In this document: one piece after another, positions 1,514 to 19,377 of the stretch
Layout of the letters: the number at the start of each line of letters is the position of its first letter
Position numbering within the stretch: position 1 is the stretch's first letter
Origin: a virus
Lineage: Duplodnaviria > Heunggongvirae > Uroviricota > Caudoviricetes
Strand: one strand, 5' to 3'
DNA: 19,377 nt
Virus record (IMG/VR): IMGVR_UViG_3300028886_000075
Position numbers and translations under genes: made by a program
The notes under the pieces: model-generated
Told to the model about the DNA's origin: nothing
The model's input: only the letters and a program-made list of their open reading frames with translations
The model's database searches: none

Positions 1514-1538
1514 GGAACCATATTAGGTTCCTTTTTTT
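1512..1538 (+). terminator. Intrinsic terminator overlapping the topoisomerase stop codon
   Basis: AAGGAACC-ATATTA-GGTTCCTT perfect 8-bp stem plus T run. Confidence 0.85.
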
Positions 1539-1576
1539 ATTTTTATATATATACAAATATATTATAATTATAATAG

Positions 1577-6028: not shown

Positions 6029-6060
6029 AAAATGGATATGGTTAAACCCATATCCATTTT
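6029..6060. terminator. Bidirectional terminator between convergent genes
   Basis: AAAATGGATATGG-TTAAAC-CCATATCCATTTT perfect 13-bp stem; the minus-strand gene's TAA lies in the loop. Confidence 0.85.
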
Positions 6061-6507: not shown

Positions 6508-6975
6508 TTATTCACTAAATTCAACTACTTTTGATCCACCATAAGGTCCATACATCCCTAATAGTTTTTCTGAAGCACTTGCATCAAAACGTAAACTATC
6601 TTTTTTGAATAATATTTCTTTATCTTCTGCATCACTAATAAAACTGTTTCTATTCATAACAGACATATTATTTTTTTTAAAGTCTTTAGCTATTTTATTA
6701 TCTTTAAATTTATAACCTGCAAGAATAAAATATTTAAATTTAGTAGCATCCCATTTATTCTTTGATAAGAAATCTTCAATTTTTTTTATCATTTCCTTTC
6801 CTTCTTCTTCAGTTAAAAATGGTTCTTTTTCAAGTCTCCCACTATCAGGTTCATATAACTTATCAATTTCAAAATGATCCCAGATACTTTGCATTTCTGG
6901 TGACATTGAATTATTAACTTTAGTATCCTTATTAATTACTAATTTTTCATTTATAATGTCTTTAAGGTTTTTCAT
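6508..6975 (-). CDS. Hypothetical protein with T4-type capsid-targeting-like N-terminus
   Basis: Starts MKNLKDIINE|KLVINKDTK; ATGA overlap with the upstream gene. Confidence 0.75.
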   Translation of the reverse strand: MKNLKDIINEKLVINKDTKVNNSMSPEMQSIWDHFEIDKLYEPDSGRLEKEPFLTEEEGKEMIKKIEDFLSKNKWDATKFKYFILAGYKFKDNKIAKDFKKNNMSVMNRNSFISDAEDKEILFKKDSLRFDASASEKLLGMYGPYGGSKVVEFSE

Positions 6976-7301
6976 AATATAAAATCTTTTATTTCTTTAT
7001 ATAATTTATCATTATATGCTTCTATATAATCAACAAGTTCTTGATACTTTATTCCTACTTCATTATATAACTTTGGATAATCACCTAACCTATCTAATAC
7101 ATCACATATTTTATTATTAAATTTTTGTTCCAATAAATCTAAACCTGGTTTGTATTTTACATTTTTATATTCAAGTGTTCCTTGAAAATATCTGCATAAT
7201 ACTTCAGAAATTTTATCCTGTTCCTTTTGTGATAAGTAATCAAACTTAGTATTTTTATTGATAATTAGTTTTTCTGTTATAAAATTAGTTATTTGTTTCA
7301 T
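6972..7301 (-). CDS. Hypothetical protein with T4-type capsid-targeting-like N-terminus
   Basis: Starts MKQITNFITE|KLIINKNTK, sharing an N-terminal motif with its neighbour. Confidence 0.75.
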   Translation of the reverse strand: MKQITNFITEKLIINKNTKFDYLSQKEQDKISEVLCRYFQGTLEYKNVKYKPGLDLLEQKFNNKICDVLDRLGDYPKLYNEVGIKYQELVDYIEAYNDKLYKEIKDFIL

Positions 7302-8598: not shown

Positions 8599-8793
8599 AT
8601 GTATAAAAAAGAAACAACATGTAAATGTATTAAAGATTTAGAATTTGAAGATATTCAATTTCATAAAGGACGTGAATACCAAGTAGATATATATCCTCTA
8701 TATTATCAAATATATCAAAACGGTGGATGGAATGATTATATATTTATGGAAGGAGAAGATAAATTTAATGAATATTTTAAAGAAATTAAATAA
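8599..8793 (+). CDS. Hypothetical protein, 64 aa (ATG at 8599 preferred over 8569)
   Basis: MYKKETTCKCIKDLEF...; ATG directly follows the upstream stop. Confidence 0.65.
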   Translation: MYKKETTCKCIKDLEFEDIQFHKGREYQVDIYPLYYQIYQNGGWNDYIFMEGEDKFNEYFKEIK

Positions 8794-8799
8794 ACATAA

Positions 8800-8889
8800 T
8801 ATTCATCTTCTAGACCTTTAAAAATTCACAAAATTTTCACAGTAATAAATTATATTAAAAACTAATTTTATAAGCTTAGAAGATGAATA
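8800..8889. repeat. 13-bp perfect inverted repeat with a 64-nt interior in non-coding DNA (candidate structured RNA)
   Basis: TATTCATCTTCTA (8800-8812) / TAGAAGATGAATA (8877-8889). Confidence 0.7.
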
Positions 8890-8950
8890 ACCGCTATCTA
8901 TGAATGAATTTTAATATAGTTTATCATAAAAAATATTTTACATAAAATTA

Positions 8951-9226
8951 ATGATTAGAGAACATATAAAAAATAAGGTTTATGAATGCGTTAGAAAAAG
9001 ATTTTATGACCCTAAGATATTTAATAATTTAATAAGTATTTATCCTGATAATGGAGAAGATTTACTAATATATTCTGAAATTGGTTTTGATAGTTTAGAT
9101 GTAGTAGAATTTATTTTATCATTAGAAGAAACATTTAAAATTGTTTTACCAGATTATTTATTTAATTCAGAAGTAACTTTAAGAATAATTATAGATTATA
9201 TATATGAACAAAGAAAGAATATTTGA
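8951..9226 (+). CDS. Acyl carrier protein-like (phosphopantetheine attachment site)
   Basis: EIGFDSLDVVEFILSLEETFKIVLPD...TLRIIIDYI matches the ACP helix II-IV pattern; DSL serine is residue 48. Confidence 0.85.
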   Translation: MIREHIKNKVYECVRKRFYDPKIFNNLISIYPDNGEDLLIYSEIGFDSLDVVEFILSLEETFKIVLPDYLFNSEVTLRIIIDYIYEQRKNI

Positions 9227-10301
9227 ATCATTTAAAAACTTTAATAGTCATAGTGATGATTATTTAGGTGCATTTTTTATTAATTGTTTTAATGAATTTC
9301 CACAATTATATAGAGTATATTTTGATGAATTAGGAAATATTGTATATCATAATGGGATGAATTCATTTTATAATATTAGAAAAAATATTAAATACCGAGT
9401 TGATAGTCGTAAGACAATTATAGAAATTAATAAAGATAAAGAAAAATTAAATTTAGAAGTATTTAATTATTCTGCTAATGAATATTTTATATTAGGGTAT
9501 TTTGAAAATATTCCTATATTAATTAATATTACATTAGGACAAGATGGTGAGATGGCAGATTATTATGAAGAGATATATACAACAAATATTGAAGTAGTAT
9601 TTGAATACGTTAAAAAATATTTCTTTAAAGCTGAACATAAAAATAATACAGAATTTGGTATTGCAGCTTCTGATGCAACTCGTCAATTATATACTTCATG
9701 GTTTGAATATACACCTCAAGAAGTAGATATCAAAACAAATTATAATGATGATCTTCCTTATGATAGAATTTGTAATATATTAGAACAGGAACATAAACCA
9801 GAATTATTATTTTTTTATGGACCTGCAGGTACAGGTAAGACTACTTTTATAAAACATCTTATTGGAAAGTATCCCGATAGAGATTTTGTATTTATAGATG
9901 GATCATTATTATATGAATCGTCACAAGAAAAACTCATGACATATTTCTTAGAAAATCAGAACACAATATTTATATTAGAAGACTGTGAAAAAATATTAAT
10001 GAGTAGAGAAGATGGATTTAATCCTGTTATGCCAATACTATTAAATATTACTGATGGAATTATCGGAGATGTTTTAGGAATTAAGATAATTTGTACATTT
10101 AATACAAATATAAATAAAATAGATGATGCATTAAAACGTAAAGGACGACTTTCACTAAAATATGAATTTAAGAAATTAAATAAAGATAAGGTTAAAAATA
10201 TATTACCTGATGAAAATCAAGATATGACATTAGCAGATATTTATAATATAAAGATTGAAAATGATTATAGTAAAAAAGAAACTAGAAAAATAGGATTTTA
10301 A
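9204..10301 (+). CDS. AAA+ ATPase (single domain, Bacteroidota-type)
   Basis: Walker A FYGPAGTGKT, Walker B IFILEDCE, sensor ICTFNT, Arg finger DALKRKGRL, C-terminal RKIGF; start overlaps the ACP gene end by 23 nt. Confidence 0.88.
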   Translation: MNKERIFESFKNFNSHSDDYLGAFFINCFNEFPQLYRVYFDELGNIVYHNGMNSFYNIRKNIKYRVDSRKTIIEINKDKEKLNLEVFNYSANEYFILGYFENIPILINITLGQDGEMADYYEEIYTTNIEVVFEYVKKYFFKAEHKNNTEFGIAASDATRQLYTSWFEYTPQEVDIKTNYNDDLPYDRICNILEQEHKPELLFFYGPAGTGKTTFIKHLIGKYPDRDFVFIDGSLLYESSQEKLMTYFLENQNTIFILEDCEKILMSREDGFNPVMPILLNITDGIIGDVLGIKIICTFNTNINKIDDALKRKGRLSLKYEFKKLNKDKVKNILPDENQDMTLADIYNIKIENDYSKKETRKIGF

Positions 10302-10306
10302 TATTT

Positions 10307-10846
10307 ATGGAAGAAAATATTTTATTAGGTAAAATAGAAAATGATAATAAAACTTGTTCATGGCCAACACCTGAACGTGAAGCTAAGACAATAGAAATTA
10401 TCAATAACATGCAGCAACAAATACCGCAAGAATTATTAGATAATATAAAAAATTCTGATTTAATGAAAATAAAATCTAAATCTTTATATCAATGGGGTTT
10501 AGAAACTGCATTAACATTAGAAAATATTGATAAAGAAATTAATTTATTTATGATTGCTCAAGATCCAAAAACAGGAGAGATCACTCATATATGTCATTCT
10601 TGCGATACTGATGATCTTGAGAAAAGAATAGATAAATTAGTAAGAATGATTAATAATGCATGTTATGGGGTAAGAGAACATAATAATGAACCAGTTGCAA
10701 ATGAAATATTTACTATTATAGCTAATGTTTGTGCTGCATATTGTGCTCAGTCTGAAGATACATTCAAAAGTTTTATGCATGTAGTTAAATATTTTATAGA
10801 TATTAATAAAGAAGCAGAAGAAAAAACTAAAGAATCTCAAACATAA
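10307..10846 (+). CDS. Hypothetical protein, 179 aa
   Basis: ORF tightly packed after the AAA gene, with phage-like codon usage. Confidence 0.7.
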   Translation: MEENILLGKIENDNKTCSWPTPEREAKTIEIINNMQQQIPQELLDNIKNSDLMKIKSKSLYQWGLETALTLENIDKEINLFMIAQDPKTGEITHICHSCDTDDLEKRIDKLVRMINNACYGVREHNNEPVANEIFTIIANVCAAYCAQSEDTFKSFMHVVKYFIDINKEAEEKTKESQT

Positions 10847-11054
10847 GATTTTTCATATTTGAACCTATAGTAAGATGCTTATTAGATGGATATACAATAA
10901 CTTCAAATAATATTTCATTATTTTTTTGATGTATATCCATTATTTTGCATTTAATATCAAATTTTGGAAAAAACTCACAATCTGATTTAAATCTTACTTT
11001 TTTTAATAAAAGACTATATATAGTTTCTAATGATAAATCTTTTATAAATTTCAT
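10827..11054 (-). CDS. Hypothetical protein, 75 aa
   Basis: MKFIKDLSLE...; fills the gap, ends in TAG and has a 20-nt convergent overlap with its neighbour. Confidence 0.6.
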   Translation of the reverse strand: MKFIKDLSLETIYSLLLKKVRFKSDCEFFPKFDIKCKIMDIHQKNNEILFEVIVYPSNKHLTIGSNMKNLMFEIL

Positions 11055-11098: not shown

Positions 11099-12283
11099 AT
11101 GGAACAAGAAGAACGTTTTTGTAGTTTTTGTGGTAAATCAATTAATGAAACAGATATTTTGTTTAGTGGTAATGATGGATATATTTGTGCAAATTGTCTA
11201 AAAAGATGTAATGATGAATTAGAAAAAAATTCAAGAACAGTAAATAGTCATACATTAGCAGGTGTACCTAAACCTAAAGAAATTAAAGAATTTTTAGATA
11301 AATATGTAATTGGACAAGATAAAGTTAAAGAACGAATATCTGTAGCAGTATATAATCATTATAAACGTATTAATACTGAAACAGAAAATGATGTTGAAAT
11401 TGATAAATCAAATATACTAGTTGTAGGTCCAACAGGTTCTGGAAAAACACTTATTGCAAAAACTGTAGCAAAACTTCTTAATGTACCTTTTACTATTGGA
11501 GATGCAACGGTTTTAACTGAAGCAGGATATGTTGGTGAAGATGTTGAATCACTTTTAGTTAATCTTTATCAAGCTGCCGATTATGATGTTGAAAAAACAG
11601 AAAGGGGAATTGTATTTATTGATGAAATAGATAAAATTGCACGTAAAGGAGATAATGCTTCAATATCTCGAGATGTATCAGGTGAAGGTGTTCAACAAGG
11701 TCTTTTAAAACTTCTTGAAGGATCTATTGTTTCAATTCCTCCTAAAGGTGGTCGTAAACACCCAGATACTCCATTAGTAAAAATTAATACAAAGAATATA
11801 TTATTTATATGCGGTGGAGCTTTTGTAGGTATTGAAGATAAAGTTAAGAATAGATGTAATAAACAGATAATTGGTTTTAATAGTCCAACAAAAAATGATT
11901 TAGATGAAACAGATTATTTAGATATGTTAAATCCAATTGATTTAAAGTCGTTTGGACTTATTCCTGAAATTATTGGACGATTACCAATTATTACTCATAC
12001 AAATGAATTAGATAGAAATGCATTAATAAAAATTCTTAAAGAACCAAAAAATGCATTAATTAAACAATATAAAAAATTATTTTCTCTTGATAATGTAAAT
12101 CTTGAATTTACAGATGAGGCATTGGAATATATTGTAGATAAAACACTTGAATATAAACTTGGTGCTCGAGGACTTAGAAATGTTATGGAAGATATAATGA
12201 ATTCAGCAATGTTTAATAGTCCTTCATCAGACGTCAAAGAAATAATAGTTGATATTGATTATGTAAAGAATCAAATAGGGTAA
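11099..12283 (+). CDS. clpX: ATP-dependent Clp protease ATP-binding subunit ClpX
   Basis: N-terminal zinc finger CSFC...CANC, VIGQ, GPTGSGKT, GYVGEDVE, FIDEIDK, RDVSGEGVQQGLLK, GGRKHP, IGF loop, PEIIGRLP and GARGLR. Confidence 0.97.
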   Translation: MEQEERFCSFCGKSINETDILFSGNDGYICANCLKRCNDELEKNSRTVNSHTLAGVPKPKEIKEFLDKYVIGQDKVKERISVAVYNHYKRINTETENDVEIDKSNILVVGPTGSGKTLIAKTVAKLLNVPFTIGDATVLTEAGYVGEDVESLLVNLYQAADYDVEKTERGIVFIDEIDKIARKGDNASISRDVSGEGVQQGLLKLLEGSIVSIPPKGGRKHPDTPLVKINTKNILFICGGAFVGIEDKVKNRCNKQIIGFNSPTKNDLDETDYLDMLNPIDLKSFGLIPEIIGRLPIITHTNELDRNALIKILKEPKNALIKQYKKLFSLDNVNLEFTDEALEYIVDKTLEYKLGARGLRNVMEDIMNSAMFNSPSSDVKEIIVDIDYVKNQIG

Positions 12284-12303
12284 CTAATGTTACCCTATTT
12301 TTT
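12273..12303. terminator. 12-bp hairpin between convergent clpX and lectin-like genes
   Basis: AAATAGGGTAAC-TAAT-GTTACCCTATTT followed by a T run; includes the clpX stop codon. Confidence 0.85.
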
Positions 12304-12314
12304 ATGTATATAAA

Positions 12315-13274
12315 TTAATAAGTAATCATAGCAACAACATAGTAGCCAATGCTCTTATAGTTGCTGCCGATGGCGCCATTATAAGTATAGACGTAGTATG
12401 CGTTATAACTATCATACGCAGTAGAGCTCCAATAGTAGTGACTAGCTAACGAAGTAACACAATCAGTTGAATATATTGCAGAAATTTGTGCTAACTTAGT
12501 ATTTATATCGTTACGTAAAGCAACTATCATACTCATTTCACCACCCGCACCAAGATACCAATCTCCTGCATTTGTTCCTACAGTATGATAGCGAGCACAA
12601 CAACAAGCAGCAGGAGCATAGTTTTCATCTGAATTATTTGTTATTGATGTATCTGTCATCCATGTTGACTGTGCTGTAGCCGTAGCAAGAATCTTATCTG
12701 TTTTGTTTTTACCATCTATATCTGTTACTACATATTGGTTTGCTGTACCTAATACAGATGTATTCCATTCGTTATTTGCATCAAATACAGATGGAATTAA
12801 ACTATATGTTTGTGTTTGCCATGATGTAGTTAGATAACCATAATTATATCCACCATGATGAGTATATTTTATATTAGCAATAGTAGATATGTTTATTCCA
12901 CTATTACCCCAACCCATGTCTTGTACTGTTAATGATCCAGTTTCTGGTGTTGTATAGTTCATATATTTAAGTGACATAAAACGAGCAGGTTCATTCTCAC
13001 CAAAGAATCCAGTTTTAGCAACGCAGATACCAATAGGAGTATAACCCAAGCTTGGATCTAATATAGTTGAATCAACTTTCTTTTCTCCATTAGCATTAGC
13101 ATAAAGTATATCTAATATATTATATGATGGCGGTGCAATATATGTATTATAGTGTACTTCATTTTGTTGTTTACATAATGATACAGTTGGTTTACCTTCA
13201 GTTTCTGGAAATTCAGAACCAACTAAATATTCCTCATATAAAGAATGTTCAGAAAAATGTTTAAGATATTTCAT
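12315..13274 (-). CDS. Virion-type protein with C-terminal C-type-lectin fold (DUF1566/Mtd-like); probable DGR target
   Basis: GDWYLGAGGEM...YYWSSTAY...NAYYV...G...YK...YYVVAM matches WYLPSxGEL...YWSSTE...AWxV...G...K...YVRAV; N-terminus MKYLKHFSEHSLY...PTVSLC...EVHY. Confidence 0.8.
   Translation of the reverse strand: MKYLKHFSEHSLYEEYLVGSEFPETEGKPTVSLCKQQNEVHYNTYIAPPSYNILDILYANANGEKKVDSTILDPSLGYTPIGICVAKTGFFGENEPARFMSLKYMNYTTPETGSLTVQDMGWGNSGINISTIANIKYTHHGGYNYGYLTTSWQTQTYSLIPSVFDANNEWNTSVLGTANQYVVTDIDGKNKTDKILATATAQSTWMTDTSITNNSDENYAPAACCCARYHTVGTNAGDWYLGAGGEMSMIVALRNDINTKLAQISAIYSTDCVTSLASHYYWSSTAYDSYNAYYVYTYNGAIGSNYKSIGYYVVAMITY
12318..12446 (-). mobile_element. Putative DGR variable region (VR)
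   Basis: 29 of the 33 codons in 12342-12440 end in C/T and 16 end in C, unlike the rest of the gene; conserved STE appears as ACT GCG (STA). Confidence 0.65.
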
Positions 13275-17504: not shown

Positions 17505-17900
17505 TTAAATATCTTTATAAAATTGAATCCAATTTTCTGGTTCATCTTCAACTTCTTGTAAAAACTCTTCAACTTTATCTAATGTTAATACAATAGCTTT
17601 AGCAAAATTATCTGTTTTTAAATCACAATAAGGGTCATCATCATAATTTATTGCACCAATTTTACCTATCCAAAGTTTCCATGTTTTTTCTTTATCAACA
17701 TAACCTAACAAGAAATGAATAAATATATTCTTTTCTTTATCTTCATGTTTATATTCTATTTTCTGATATTGTTCACCATTATTAAGCCATGTTACTTTTT
17801 TATCTGGAGATTTCCAAATAGTAAATTTTATATTGCCACGACGTGTGGTTTTCTTTTCATCTTCATCAGATTCTCTAATGTATTGTATGATTGATTTCAT
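17505..17900 (-). CDS. Hypothetical protein with capsid-targeting-like N-terminus
   Basis: Starts MKSIIQYIRE|SDE. Confidence 0.72.
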   Translation of the reverse strand: MKSIIQYIRESDEDEKKTTRRGNIKFTIWKSPDKKVTWLNNGEQYQKIEYKHEDKEKNIFIHFLLGYVDKEKTWKLWIGKIGAINYDDDPYCDLKTDNFAKAIVLTLDKVEEFLQEVEDEPENWIQFYKDI

Positions 17901-17905
17901 AAAAA

Positions 17906-18178
17906 TTATCTATCACCTTCTTTTTCATCTGGAGCTAAACGAACTTTAAATTCAATACTATCGCCAACTCTTGTTAAATCTTCTAAACTACGTAATGCTG
18001 ATGTGATAATATGAAAACGATTTTCATCAGCTTCTAAATCAAATTTAATTGCTTTAGCACCTTCACGAATACAATTACAAAATTCATCTAATTCATCAAC
18101 ATTACAAAGTATTGTTCCATTAGATTTATATCTTTTTGCTTCTCTACGTTCAGATATTAATTCTTTAATATTTTTCAT
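17906..18178 (-). CDS. Hypothetical protein with capsid-targeting-like N-terminus
   Basis: Starts MKNIKELISE|RRE. Confidence 0.72.
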   Translation of the reverse strand: MKNIKELISERREAKRYKSNGTILCNVDELDEFCNCIREGAKAIKFDLEADENRFHIITSALRSLEDLTRVGDSIEFKVRLAPDEKEGDR

Positions 18179-18384: not shown

Positions 18385-19377
18385 TTAAATTGTAAAATTT
18401 GAATCTGCTAATATATAATTTAATTTAGTTTCATATTTTTTACTAAGTTTTTTCATTGTAGCATTATCATTATTTGTAATGAATTCAATCATCCCATCAA
18501 TATTTTTTATAAATTTATCGATTTCTTTTTCATTAATATCAAATTCAGCATCAGTTATAATAACATTTATAAGATATTCTTTTGTATGATCTTTCATATA
18601 TTCTAATAATTGATGGAAAGGCATTGTTCCACCTCCAACATTAGTTTTCTTACCAAATTGAATTTCTATCATACTAGTATCAAATGCATATATCTTAAAT
18701 GTTACATCATCAACAATAGTTTCTTTAGAATATTGTTTCTTTAATGATTCAGCTATTGTATATAATGCTTTAAATACATTATTTATTGAACTACCCATTG
18801 AACCAGATCTATCAATATAAAATGCAACATTAATTGTAAATTTTTCTTCTTTAATTTTTCGTCCAGGTTGAATAGGTTGTCCATATTTTATAAATCCTGA
18901 ACCACGTTTAACTCTTGAATATGTTGATTGATATTCACGTTTCTTTTGAAATACTTTCTTTTTAACAAATGTATTAATAGATGAATTCATTTGTTTATTC
19001 CAACCACCTATTCCATTATTTGTATTTGTAGCTAATCCAGATTCTTTAAGTTCTACAGATTTTTTACACTTAGATATAAATGTTCCTAAATCACCACTTA
19101 ATTTATTTTTATATTTTTCAATTATTTTATCAGCCTTTTCTTTAATCTTTTTTAAATCAGCATCAGATAATTTAGCTTCTTTATGACCTTTACCTGCTTT
19201 ATGTCCTTGAGCTTCTTTATTACCTTTTTGATCGTTTCCTTGACTTTCCTTACCTTGACCTTCTTTACCTTGACCTTCTTTACCTTGACCTTCTTTACCT
19301 TGACCTTCTTTACCTTGACCTTCTTTACCTTGACCTTCTTTACCTTGACCTTCTTTACCTTGACCTTCTTTACCTTG
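18385..19377 (-). CDS. VWA-like domain protein (DUF2201-type architecture), 5'-truncated by the window edge
   Basis: MIDAS VAFYIDRSGSM...GGGT...IITDAE; manual translation shows the frame stays open from 18990 to 19377, so the track start is an internal Met. Confidence 0.8.
   Translation of the reverse strand, partial: QGKEGQGKEGQGKEGQGKEGQGKEGQGKEGQGKEGQGKEGQGKESQGNDQKGNKEAQGHKAGKGHKEAKLSDADLKKIKEKADKIIEKYKNKLSGDLGTFISKCKKSVELKESGLATNTNNGIGGWNKQMNSSINTFVKKKVFQKKREYQSTYSRVKRGSGFIKYGQPIQPGRKIKEEKFTINVAFYIDRSGSMGSSINNVFKALYTIAESLKKQYSKETIVDDVTFKIYAFDTSMIEIQFGKKTNVGGGTMPFHQLLEYMKDHTKEYLINVIITDAEFDINEKEIDKFIKNIDGMIEFITNNDNATMKKLSKKYETKLNYILADSNFTI
19246..19377 (-). repeat. 15-bp tandem repeat (CAAGGTAAAGAAGGT)n encoding QGKEG
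   Basis: Perfect periodicity over 19250-19377 (about 8.5 units), with one degenerate unit before it; runs off the window. Confidence 0.95.

What the first reader, a model, noticed from the sequence alone, without database searches (positions are those of the whole stretch)
12273..12446. Orphan DGR target: lectin-fold gene with a hypervariable-type 3' end and downstream hairpin, no template or RT nearby
Seen: the last ~43 codons switch abruptly to NNC/NNT codons (CAC TAC TAT TGG AGC TCT ACT GCG TAT GAT AGT TAT AAC GCA TAC TAC GTC TAT ACT TAT AAT GGC GCC ATC GGC AGC AAC TAT AAG AGC ATT GGC TAC). 16 of 33 end in C and only one in A, in a genome dominated by A/T third positions. STE to STA (GAG to GCG) is an adenine-position change. 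A 12-bp stem with a 4-nt loop lies 14 nt past the stop. Known: DGRs (Bordetella BPP-1 mtd) mutate adenines of AAY-rich templates into C-terminal CLec variable regions and use a downstream hairpin for targeting. Inference: a remote, trans-diversified receptor-binding protein sitting among metabolic genes, implying a multi-target DGR network in this jumbo phage.
Basis: partly seen in the sequence, partly recalled or inferred. Interest (0 to 1): 0.8.

Follow-up and report, generated by a model that had tools for sequence, protein, structure and literature searches.

The report
DGR-written variable tip, template missing
The last 36 codons of a lectin-fold gene in this huge gut/rumen phage carry the clear signature of a diversity-generating retroelement (a reverse-transcriptase system that rewrites a binding site), but no template or enzyme is in reach, so it is an ordinary kind of phage hypervariable gene that is probably an orphan copy here.

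Summary
Gene 12315-13274 (-) encodes a 319-aa C-type-lectin-fold protein of the Lcl_C/DUF1566 type. Its codons 277-312 (12339-12446) switch to NNY codons: third-position C is 16/36, against 14/276 in the rest of the gene.

The DGR reading of this region is strongly supported by relatives:
- In the two nearest 90%-identity protein clusters, members differ about 70% at 19 fixed sites and 3-5% elsewhere.
- Three members carry all-Asn, template-state versions.
- 99.6% of residues at those sites are NNY-encodable.
- Related phages carry reverse transcriptase (RT) and template repeats (TR) whose mismatches to the variable regions (VR) fall at adenines. One complete 554-kb phage serves six scattered copies from one template.

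The "targeting hairpin" is the shared bidirectional terminator of two convergent genes.

Neither RT nor TR is in the window. The DGR cassette is absent from the site where a syntenic relative carries it. No RT of the cognate clade is recorded on the window's 289,687-nt contig. The gene looks like a swapped-in allele.

I lean towards a frozen orphan VR (about 0.5) over an active remote target (about 0.3). The whole genome was not available. The scan's first readers flagged the same pattern on other DNA.

The parts
12315..13274 (-). Target-type gene, 319 aa. It has a portable N-terminal module of about 45 aa, followed by one expanded C-type-lectin-like domain (Lcl_C/DUF1566 type).
   Evidence: ORF and translation. 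Pfam Lcl_C: E = 1e-6, 29.4 bits, below the 34.9-bit cut-off. AF2 model: pLDDT 89.7. VIA-align: 4eps Z 14.7, Lcl C-terminal domain 8q4e Z 11.4, TvpA 2y3c Z 6.4, Mtd 1yu0 Z 5.8. At least 196 homologs on huge-phage contigs of up to 717 kb.
12339..12446 (-). Variable region (codons 277-312). Its 19 template-Asn sites are codons 279, 280, 288, 290, 291, 294, 296, 298, 299, 301, 303-306 and 308-312.
   Evidence: All 19 sites are NNY codons. C3 enrichment: p = 1.6e-9. Column entropy exceeds 3 bits at these sites only. Within-cluster pairwise difference is 0.69-0.73 at these sites against 0.03-0.05 elsewhere, and 99.6% of residues are NNY-encodable. Nucleotide identity to L001 is 64.8% here, against 94.8% just upstream and 91.7% just downstream.
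12318..12338 (-). Conserved 3' tail of the gene (VVAMITY), directly after the last variable codon. This is the candidate region where template and variable-region homology would end (IMH-like). Inferred.
   Evidence: It is conserved at DNA level in DGR-state relatives. In relatives with tandem paralogs, the sequence after the VR is identical for about 40 nt past the stop. In G002 and G004, TR/VR homology runs through this tail.
12273..12300 (.). Bidirectional intrinsic terminator between the convergent ClpX-like gene and the target-type gene. It has a 12-bp stem and a 4-nt loop.
   Evidence: Scored as a terminator on both strands, with a T-run on the + strand. The stem contains the ClpX stop codon at 12281-12283. 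A matching 13-bp hairpin lies between the other convergent pair, at 6029-6060. In relatives, hairpin position and sequence are not conserved, and hairpins are absent after internal tandem paralogs.
13140..13274 (-). N-terminal module of about 45 aa (MKYLKxF..H..Y ... VSLC..E.EVHYN.Y). It has low model confidence and is shared with proteins that carry other binding domains.
   Evidence: pLDDT is about 50-60 for residues 1-50. M1, K2, H10, Y13, C34 and H41 are nearly invariant. The same module heads a different Fib_succ_major-like CLec protein at G002:98107 and an LRR_5 fusion, P0119.
1514..1576 (.). Empty junction between the GyrA gene and the next ORF. The syntenic relative G002 carries its whole DGR cassette at this position (RT, TR and a 413-aa target).
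   Evidence: Synteny by tblastn: GyrA 90%, RecA 95%, ClpX 78%. G002 cassette coordinates.
11099..12283 (+). ClpX-like ATPase gene, convergent with the target-type gene (context).
   Evidence: Pfam AAA_2, zf-C4_ClpX and ClpB_D2-small.

Best explanation
Gene 12315-13274 (-) encodes a soluble binding protein: a portable 45-aa N-terminal module followed by a C-type-lectin-fold domain of the Lcl_C/DUF1566 type, with no signal peptide.

Its last 36 codons form a variable region written by a diversity-generating retroelement. In that mechanism an Asn-codon-rich (AAY) template RNA is reverse-transcribed with random misincorporation at adenines, and the cDNA replaces the 3' end of the gene. This gives NNY codons at 19 fixed positions on the ligand-binding face. 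This part is shown by comparison with relatives.

In this genome the copy is most likely an orphan. It appears to be an allele that came into the fast-swapping ClpX-MnmA slot by recombination from a phage that had the RT and TR next to it, and it is now frozen in one diversified state. This part is inferred.

The hairpin 14 nt past the stop codon is simply the terminator shared with ClpX.
For: DGR origin of the variable region:
- NNY codons at 19/19 sites, and C3 at 44% against 5% in the rest of the gene.
- The nearest relatives (69-71% identity, clusters of P0005 and P0008) vary at exactly these sites: 0.69-0.73 pairwise difference against 0.03-0.05 elsewhere.
- Those clusters include all-Asn template-state members (P0121, P0129, P0133).
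- 99.6% of residues at these sites lie in the NNY-encodable set, against 82% elsewhere.
- Working DGRs on the same scaffold exist in relatives. In G002, 22/22 TR-VR mismatches fall at TR adenines. In G004, the six VRs give 16/16, 17/19, 19/21, 24/25, 22/24 and 26/33.
- The fold is CLec.

Orphan status:
- No RT or TR lies in the window.
- The cassette is absent from the GyrA junction where syntenic G002 has it.
- The G002 and G004 TRs do not fit this VR: only about half of the mismatches fall at A.
- RTs of the clade linked to the nearest alleles sit on contigs of the same lengths as those alleles (9259, 11220, 4009 and 3384 nt), which suggests they lie within a few kb of them.
- No RT cluster at 53% identity or more has the window's 289,687-nt contig as its longest contig.
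- An unrelated phage, G001, shares only this gene with the window (86% nt). It has no RT or TR in 236 kb, and its copy has an in-frame TAG although that phage uses the standard code.
Against: - The whole 289,687-nt genome could not be searched. About 200 kb is unseen, so a remote TR/RT cannot be excluded.
- The open reading frame is intact, and the VR shows no decay. There are 16 C-ending codons in a genome with 4% C3, which argues for recent writing. That fits a recent transfer, but it fits an active remote target equally well.
- Remote targets more than 100 kb from the RT are real in a phage of this group (G004).
- The links between RTs, alleles and contigs rest on equal contig lengths and on cluster-level 'longest contig' values, which are circumstantial.
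- Only the best 120 RT hits were listed per search.
Confidence: 0.5

Rival explanations
1. This is an active remote target. The genome carries one TR-RT cassette elsewhere, more than 7-12 kb from this gene, and that cassette rewrites this gene in trans, possibly together with paralogs, as in the six-target network of G004.
For: - In G004, one TR next to one RT matches six VRs at 2 kb to about 350 kb, with mismatches almost only at adenines.
- The window VR is pristine (19/19 NNY, C3-rich) and the ORF is intact.
- It differs from the 79%-identical L001 copy at 38/108 VR bases, against about 5% in the adjacent DNA, so diversification happened after the two copies split.
- Relatives carry several paralogous targets with identical post-VR tails.
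Against: - No RT of the cognate clade is recorded on the 289,687-nt contig.
- The cassette is absent at the syntenic site.
- The nearest alleles appear to have their RT within a few kb, whereas this copy has none within 7-12 kb.
- The first-stage notes on a further window of about 60 kb of the same genome mention no RT.
Confidence: 0.3
2. This is not a DGR product. The tip is a fast-evolving binding loop shaped by ordinary point mutation, diversifying selection and recombination among paralogs, and the codon pattern reflects amino-acid preference for Tyr, Asn, Ser and Gly.
For: - Many distant family members have variable tips containing K, E, Q or M and A/T-ending codons, with no sign of DGR action.
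- The gene is clearly exchanged between phages.
Against: - Ordinary evolution does not fix the third position as C/T at 19/19 sites in a genome with 4% C3.
- It does not produce all-Asn alleles inside 90%-identity clusters.
- It does not exclude K, E, Q, M and W from 99.6% of 570 site observations.
- Bona fide TRs with the same scaffold exist.
Confidence: 0.05
3. The hairpin at 12273-12300 is (also) the DGR target-recognition cruciform, as downstream of the VR in Bordetella phage BPP-1, rather than only a terminator.
For: - It has a 12-bp stem and a 4-nt loop, 14 nt after the stop codon.
- Hairpins also follow several verified VRs in relatives: the L109 VR and some G004 VRs.
Against: - It overlaps the ClpX stop codon, is followed by a T-run, and sits between convergent genes exactly as the hairpin at 6029-6060 does.
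- In relatives, hairpins lie 14-50 nt away with unrelated sequences, and they occur only after the last gene of a run.
- Three tandem DGR-state paralogs in L032 have none, and the verified G002 VR has only a weak one.
Confidence: 0.1

Closest known systems
Legionella pneumophila DGR target LdtA and the 'CLec2 / category d' DGR targets (DUF1566, DUF823, Fib_succ_major) of Wu et al. 2018 (PMC5758913)
   Same: Both have a C-terminal VR on the YWSST...A(W/Y).V....G.I....K.....V scaffold of a DUF1566-type lectin fold, with an AAY-rich template in relatives. About half of the known targets are short, single-domain proteins.
   Different: This protein has no lipoprotein signal. It is encoded by a huge phage with 26% G+C, has its own portable N-terminal module, and no TR or RT is in reach in this genome.
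Bordetella phage BPP-1 Mtd / Brt / TR (the founding DGR)
   Same: A phage CLec-fold protein with a C-terminal VR, adenine mutagenesis and AAY-to-NNY codon logic. The fold matches 1yu0 at Z 5.8.
   Different: In BPP-1, the VR, TR and RT are adjacent, with a GC-rich IMH and a dedicated hairpin. Here nothing is adjacent, the VR tail is AT-rich, and the hairpin is a terminator. The protein is not a trimeric tail-fibre tip by any evidence obtained here.
Treponema denticola TvpA DGR with seven non-adjacent targets (cited in PMC5758913)
   Same: In both, one TR/RT serves several dispersed paralogous CLec targets. This is seen here in relative G004, which has six VRs. The fold matches 2y3c at Z 6.4.
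   Different: The Treponema system is bacterial and chromosomal with FGE-sulfatase-type CLec targets. Here it is a phage genome and an Lcl_C-type CLec. Wu et al. expected no targets more than 100 kb away for phage DGRs.
Bacteroides type V pilus / fimbrial tip proteins with DUF1566-like heads (PDB 4eps), which are diversified by DGRs in gut Bacteroides according to the abstract of bioRxiv 10.1101/2024.11.15.621889 (listed)
   Same: This is the best structural match: Z 14.7, 197 residues aligned, Foldseek E = 4e-5. The habitat (gut) is the same, and both are adhesin-like.
   Different: This protein has no pilin stalk domains. It is phage-encoded and only 18% identical.

Membership tests
DGR target gene (variable region) | A template repeat in the same genome that differs from the VR essentially only at template adenines | tested here: inconclusive
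   No such repeat was found in the window or in any fetched locus: the best candidate has 19 non-adenine mismatches. The G002 and G004 TRs do not fit. The rest of the 289,687-nt genome could not be read.
DGR target gene (variable region) | A DGR-clade reverse transcriptase in the same genome | tested here: inconclusive
   No RT is in the window. No RT cluster related to the G002 or P0224 RTs has a longest contig of 289,687 nt. This look is indirect and incomplete.
DGR target gene (variable region) | VR at the C-terminal end of a C-type-lectin-fold (or Ig) domain | tested here: met
   The VR is residues 277-312 of 319. They fall in the last beta-hairpins of a CLec domain.
DGR target gene (variable region) | Variable codons of NNY type (from AAY), with residues limited to the 15 NNY-encodable amino acids and no stops | tested here: met
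   All 19 sites are NNY in the window. 99.6% of 570 site observations in 30 close relatives are NNY-encodable.
DGR target gene (variable region) | Hypervariation confined to the VR among otherwise near-identical copies | tested here: met
   Met in the nearest relatives: 0.69-0.73 pairwise difference against 0.03-0.05 elsewhere, with all-Asn alleles present. Window against L001: 64.8% identity in the VR against 94.8% next to it. The window's own population was not testable, because no reads were available.
DGR target gene (variable region) | IMH and a dedicated hairpin or cruciform just 3' of the VR | tested here: inconclusive
   A conserved tail follows the VR. The hairpin behaves as a shared terminator and is not conserved in position or sequence among relatives.
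Pfam Lcl_C (PF07603, formerly DUF1566) | HMM score at or above the gathering threshold | tested here: not met
   The score is 29.4 bits against a cut-off of 34.9 (E = 1e-6), over residues 203-314. The protein database's precomputed annotation does list PF07603 for this protein.
Pfam Lcl_C (PF07603, formerly DUF1566) | Fold of the solved Lcl C-terminal domain | tested here: met
   8q4e: VIA-align Z 11.4, rmsd 2.7, 126 of 131 residues aligned. Foldseek probability 0.99.
Multi-target (remote) DGR network | Two or more dispersed VRs in one genome that match one TR | not testable with these tools
   Shown for relative G004, which has six VRs and one TR/RT. The window's genome is not held.
Rho-independent (intrinsic) terminator | G+C-containing stem-loop followed by a T-run at the end of a gene | tested here: met
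   12273-12300 has 12 pairs (4 G-C) and a 4-nt loop, with TTTTTT after it on the + strand. Ten such sites were found against 3.4 expected.

The most novel reading that the evidence does not exclude
Huge gut and rumen phages may run genome-wide DGR networks. In such a network, one TR-RT cassette rewrites several dispersed paralogous lectin-fold genes more than 100 kb away, and these genes are built on a portable N-terminal module. Wu et al. 2018 expected no such distances for phage DGRs, and I found no huge-phage paper in the library that mentions them. On this reading the window's gene is one such remote, still-active target, and VR-bearing alleles hop between unrelated phages.
Probability: 0.3. 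Interest if true: 0.6.

Novelty: new member of a known kind. Interest (0 to 1): 0.45.

Why it matters
The finding marks the probable ligand-binding face of an abundant, unannotated protein family: about 200 or more members on contigs of up to 717 kb from uncultivated huge phages of gut and rumen.

It also shows three broader points:
- Large DGR surveys miss such genes when the template is far away or lost. Roux et al. 2021 state that their approach could not detect remote targets.
- In at least one complete 554-kb phage, a single retroelement serves six genes spread over the genome.
- Diversified alleles travel between unrelated phages.

For this window alone, the result is a good annotation rather than a new mechanism.

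Tried and rejected
Access that failed:
- The whole genome is not held.
- The window has no near match in GenBank phages.

TR searches:
- blastn with word size 7 against the window and L001 found nothing.
- DNA and degenerate-pattern searches of the 236-kb G001 found only the VR itself.
- An adenine-tolerant sliding scan of all fetched loci gave at best 19 non-adenine mismatches.
- All-AAY pattern scans of IMG/VR found only the G004 TR.
- A scaffold pattern of the nearest-relative (P0005/P0008 cluster) type found nothing.
- The same pattern in bacterial genomes found an unrelated GC-rich bacterial DGR with two TRs.
- The family is absent from GTDB genomes.

RT searches:
- PF00078 and tblastn with four related RTs against the window, G001 and 33 metagenome loci were all negative.

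Readings rejected:
- That the G002 DGR, about 10 kb from the syntenic ortholog, templates that ortholog or the window VR. Only 23/62 and 24/54 mismatches fall at adenines.
- TAG recoding as an explanation for the in-frame TAG in L001. G001 uses the standard code, whereas G003 and G004 are recoded.
- That the N-terminus is the T4-like capsid-targeting tag seen on neighbouring small ORFs. It is similar over the first 7 residues, but the family keeps His10 rather than Glu10.

Not found:
- No Avd homolog by Pfam next to the G002 or G004 RTs.
- No tRNA or Rfam match in the window.
Full report
**What is there.** The finding lies at the 3' end of a minus-strand gene, 12315-13274, 319 aa, stored as P0001. 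The window is very AT-rich (26% G+C). In its other ORFs only 3.9% of third codon positions are C.

In codons 277-312 of this gene (12339-12446), third positions are C16, T16, G3 and A1. In the rest of the gene they are C14, T132, A107 and G23. The hairpin is real: 12273-12300, a 12-bp stem with a 4-nt loop, 14 nt after the stop codon.

**The protein.** Pfam gives a sub-threshold Lcl_C (DUF1566) match over residues 203-314 (29.4 bits, cut-off 34.9). PHROGs gives only an unnamed family.

An AlphaFold2 model built on 33 homologs is confident: mean pLDDT 89.7, with only residues 1-50 low. Residues 45-319 form one expanded C-type-lectin-like domain. The structural matches are:

| PDB entry | Protein | Score |
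|---|---|---|
| 4eps | Bacteroides fimbrial protein | Z 14.7; Foldseek E = 4e-5 |
| 8q4e | Legionella Lcl C-terminal domain | Z 11.4, 126/131 residues aligned |
| 2y3c | DGR variable protein TvpA | Z 6.4 |
| 1yu0 | DGR variable protein Mtd | Z 5.8 |
| 5vf4 | DGR variable protein TaqVP | Z 4.9 |

Many animal C-type lectins also match. 'Lectin-fold gene' is therefore correct. The variable codons fall in the last beta-hairpins of this domain.

**Evidence that the tip is a DGR variable region.** The protein has at least 196 homologs of similar length, on contigs of up to 717 kb.

Across 94 full-length members, column entropy exceeds 3 bits at residues 277-280, 287-291, 294, 296-299, 301, 303-306 and 308-312, and Asn is the commonest residue there. 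Between these sit conserved W282, S284, T285, E286, G300, I302, K307 and V313. This is the known DUF1566-type DGR scaffold.

The decisive test came from the 90%-identity clusters of the nearest relatives (P0005 and P0008, 69-71% identical to P0001):
- Their members differ from one another at the same roughly 20 positions.
- Three members (P0121, P0129, P0133) carry Asn at all of those positions. That is the unmutated, template-state sequence.
- At the 19 sites defined in this way, mean pairwise amino-acid difference is 0.69 and 0.73 in the two clusters, against 0.05 and 0.03 at all other sites.
- 99.6% of 570 site observations are residues an NNY codon can encode, against 82% elsewhere.
- In the window all 19 sites are NNY codons.
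- The Ala at position 286 (GCG) replaces a Glu that is nearly universal in the family, through changes at adenine positions. The closest relative has GAA.

Against the closest DNA relative, L001 (79% aa), nucleotide identity is 94.8% in the 229 nt before the VR, 64.8% inside it and 91.7% after it. Twenty-eight of the 38 VR differences fall at first and second codon positions.

More distant clusters have fixed tips containing K, E, Q or M and A/T-ending codons. The family therefore holds both diversified and non-diversified lineages.

**Working DGRs on the same scaffold in relatives.**

G002 is a 116-kb contig. Its gene order is syntenic with the window: GyrA 90%, RecA 95%, ClpX 78% and the phosphoesterase 88% amino-acid identity. 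It carries the following:
- a 439-aa RT (PF00078);
- a 413-aa paralog of the family;
- a 181-nt TR/VR pair in which all 22 mismatches lie at template adenines.

G004 is a complete 553.7-kb phage that reads TAG as a sense codon. It has one RT and one TR directly upstream of it (354,870-355,035). Six VR copies lie at the 3' ends of family paralogs, at about 6.9, 8.1, 133.6, 218.0, 357.2 and 529.1 kb. Mismatches at template adenines are 16/16, 17/19, 19/21, 24/25, 22/24 and 26/33. Five of the six lie more than 130 kb from the RT.

A 52-kb contig (L109) has a distant full-length homolog (26% identity, same architecture) beside its TR and RT.

**The hairpin.** It lies in the 31-nt gap between two convergent genes. 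It contains the stop codon of the ClpX-like gene (12281-12283) and is followed by a T-run on the plus strand. It scores as a terminator on both strands. The window's other convergent gene pair has the same kind of 13-bp hairpin at 6029-6060.

In relatives, hairpins after the gene differ in sequence, lie 14-50 nt away and appear only after the last gene of a run. Three tandem DGR-state paralogs in L032 have none, and the verified G002 VR has only a weak one. I read it as an ordinary bidirectional terminator. A second role in retrohoming cannot be excluded, but nothing requires it.

**Is this copy served by a DGR in its own genome?** This could not be settled.

What can be said about the window and its syntenic relative:
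- The window holds no RT (Pfam on 20 ORFs, tblastn with five related RTs).
- The window holds no TR-like copy.
- In G002 the DGR cassette sits between the GyrA gene and the next ORF. In the window these two genes are 63 nt apart.
- Neither the G002 nor the G004 template fits this VR. The G002 template does not fit G002's own syntenic ortholog either: only 23 of 62 mismatches fall at adenines.

What the protein database adds:
- The RT clade closest to G002's includes P0224.
- Members of the P0224 cluster lie on contigs of 9259, 11220, 4009 and 3384 nt. The nearest alleles of the window gene (P0006, P0004, P0005, P0124) lie on contigs of exactly these lengths.
- So in those phages the RT appears to lie within a few kb of the gene.
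- All ten window proteins that I looked up lie on a 289,687-nt contig.
- None of the 11 RT clusters at 53% identity or more to P0224 has that contig as its longest. Nor does any other of the listed RT hits from the two searches (120 each).

What suggests that the allele moves:
- Contigs of 5525 and 5735 nt carry ClpX and AAA proteins at 90% identity or more to the window's.
- G001 (236 kb, 83% complete) is otherwise unrelated. It shares with the window only this gene (86% nt, from about 30 nt upstream of the start to the stop) and a small intergenic element.
- G001 has no RT and no TR, and its copy has an in-frame TAG at a conserved Trp although that phage uses the standard code.

Together this suggests that the allele moves between phages and can end up without its retroelement. 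I therefore lean towards 'orphan, frozen VR' (about 0.5) over 'active remote target' (about 0.3). Two caveats apply. The contig links are circumstantial. And the pristine NNY, C-rich codons and the intact frame show that the last rewriting was recent.

**Function.** There is no signal peptide. The first 45 or so residues are conserved across the family but poorly ordered in the model. They also head other binding proteins: a Fib_succ_major-like lectin at G002:98107 and an LRR_5 fusion, P0119.

That fits a modular protein made of a docking module and an exchangeable binding head. Such a protein could be a virion-borne adhesin. No evidence obtained here places it on the particle, and its neighbours are replication and housekeeping genes.

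**Literature.**
- DUF1566-type CLec targets and non-adjacent targets are known. However, Wu et al. 2018 expected targets more than 100 kb away only for non-phage DGRs (PMC5758913).
- Roux et al. 2021 state that their survey could not detect remote targets (PMC8144416).
- The Lak, Jug and huge-phage papers I checked do not mention DGRs.
- DGRs as such are very common in gut phages (PMC8241571).

**Earlier notes of this scan.** First readers flagged the same three patterns on other DNA: an orphan DGR-type tip, a paralog that does not match the local TR, and a single in-frame TAG in a 320-codon gene. My results agree with these notes. I did not count them as evidence.

**Verdict.** The region is a genuine DGR-type variable region in a lectin-fold gene, and so a new member of a known kind. 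The hairpin is a terminator. Orphan versus remote target stays open, with a lean towards orphan. The more interesting by-product is the six-target, genome-wide DGR network in the 554-kb relative.

Noticed in passing
L065/L067-L073 (G004 = IMGVR_UViG_3300045988_166570, 553,716 nt): This complete, TAG-recoded megaphage has one RT and one TR (354,870-355,035). Six adenine-mismatched VRs lie at about 6.9, 8.1, 133.6, 218.0, 357.2 and 529.1 kb, so five targets are more than 130 kb from the RT. Several VRs differ from the TR by in-frame 3- or 6-nt indels.
   Followed up: partly
L014:2300-6310 (G002 = IMGVR_UViG_3300021255_003058, about 102.3-106.3 kb): A complete DGR cassette is inserted between the GyrA gene and the next ORF of a phage syntenic with the window. 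It holds a 439-aa RT, a 413-aa family paralog, and a 181-nt TR/VR pair with 22/22 mismatches at adenines. Pfam found no Avd in the two small ORFs between the target and the RT.
   Followed up: partly
window 8792-8952: An intergenic element of about 160 nt with a 14-bp terminal inverted repeat (fold z = -4.0). It is present in 4-5 copies (72-93% identity) in the otherwise unrelated phage G001, one of them 3.7 kb from that phage's copy of the target-type gene. It could be a small mobile or regulatory element. It has no Rfam or tRNA match.
   Followed up: partly
L001:10001-10960 (G001 189,677-190,636): The 79%-identical copy of the gene has one in-frame TAG at a conserved Trp codon, in a phage that uses the standard code. 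Its VR also contains a few non-NNY codons (CGA, TGG, ACA). It is probably a decaying orphan copy.
   Followed up: partly
L032:1-3658 and L038:2389-4399: These rumen metagenome contigs carry three (L032) or two (L038) tandem family paralogs. Their DGR-state VRs differ, but the 40 nt following the VR, past the stop codon, are identical. This is as expected for several targets of one template.
   Followed up: no
window 6508-7301 (-), 17505-18178 (-): Four small ORFs start with T4 capsid-targeting-like leaders (MKNLKDIINE, MKQITNFITE, MKSIIQYIRE, MKNIKELISE). This matches earlier notes on this genome.
   Followed up: no
window 18385-19377 (-): An ORF that runs off the window end, with a long run of perfect QGKEG pentapeptide repeats.
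   Followed up: no
G002 98,107-98,766 (L088): The family's 45-aa N-terminal module is fused to a different, Fib_succ_major-like lectin domain (219 aa). In P0119 the module is followed by LRR_5 repeats and then the family lectin domain. The module is portable.
   Followed up: partly
L008 (G003) 10001-10963 and neighbouring paralog: Two tandem family paralogs in a TAG-recoded phage have in-frame TAGs at columns that are Gln in relatives. Their tips are not in a DGR state.
   Followed up: no
L097:4400-6250 (gut MAG contig CABUUO010000021.1): An unrelated GC-rich bacterial DGR with two near-identical AAY-rich template copies, 327 nt apart, upstream of its RT. It uses the same DUF1566 scaffold.
   Followed up: no
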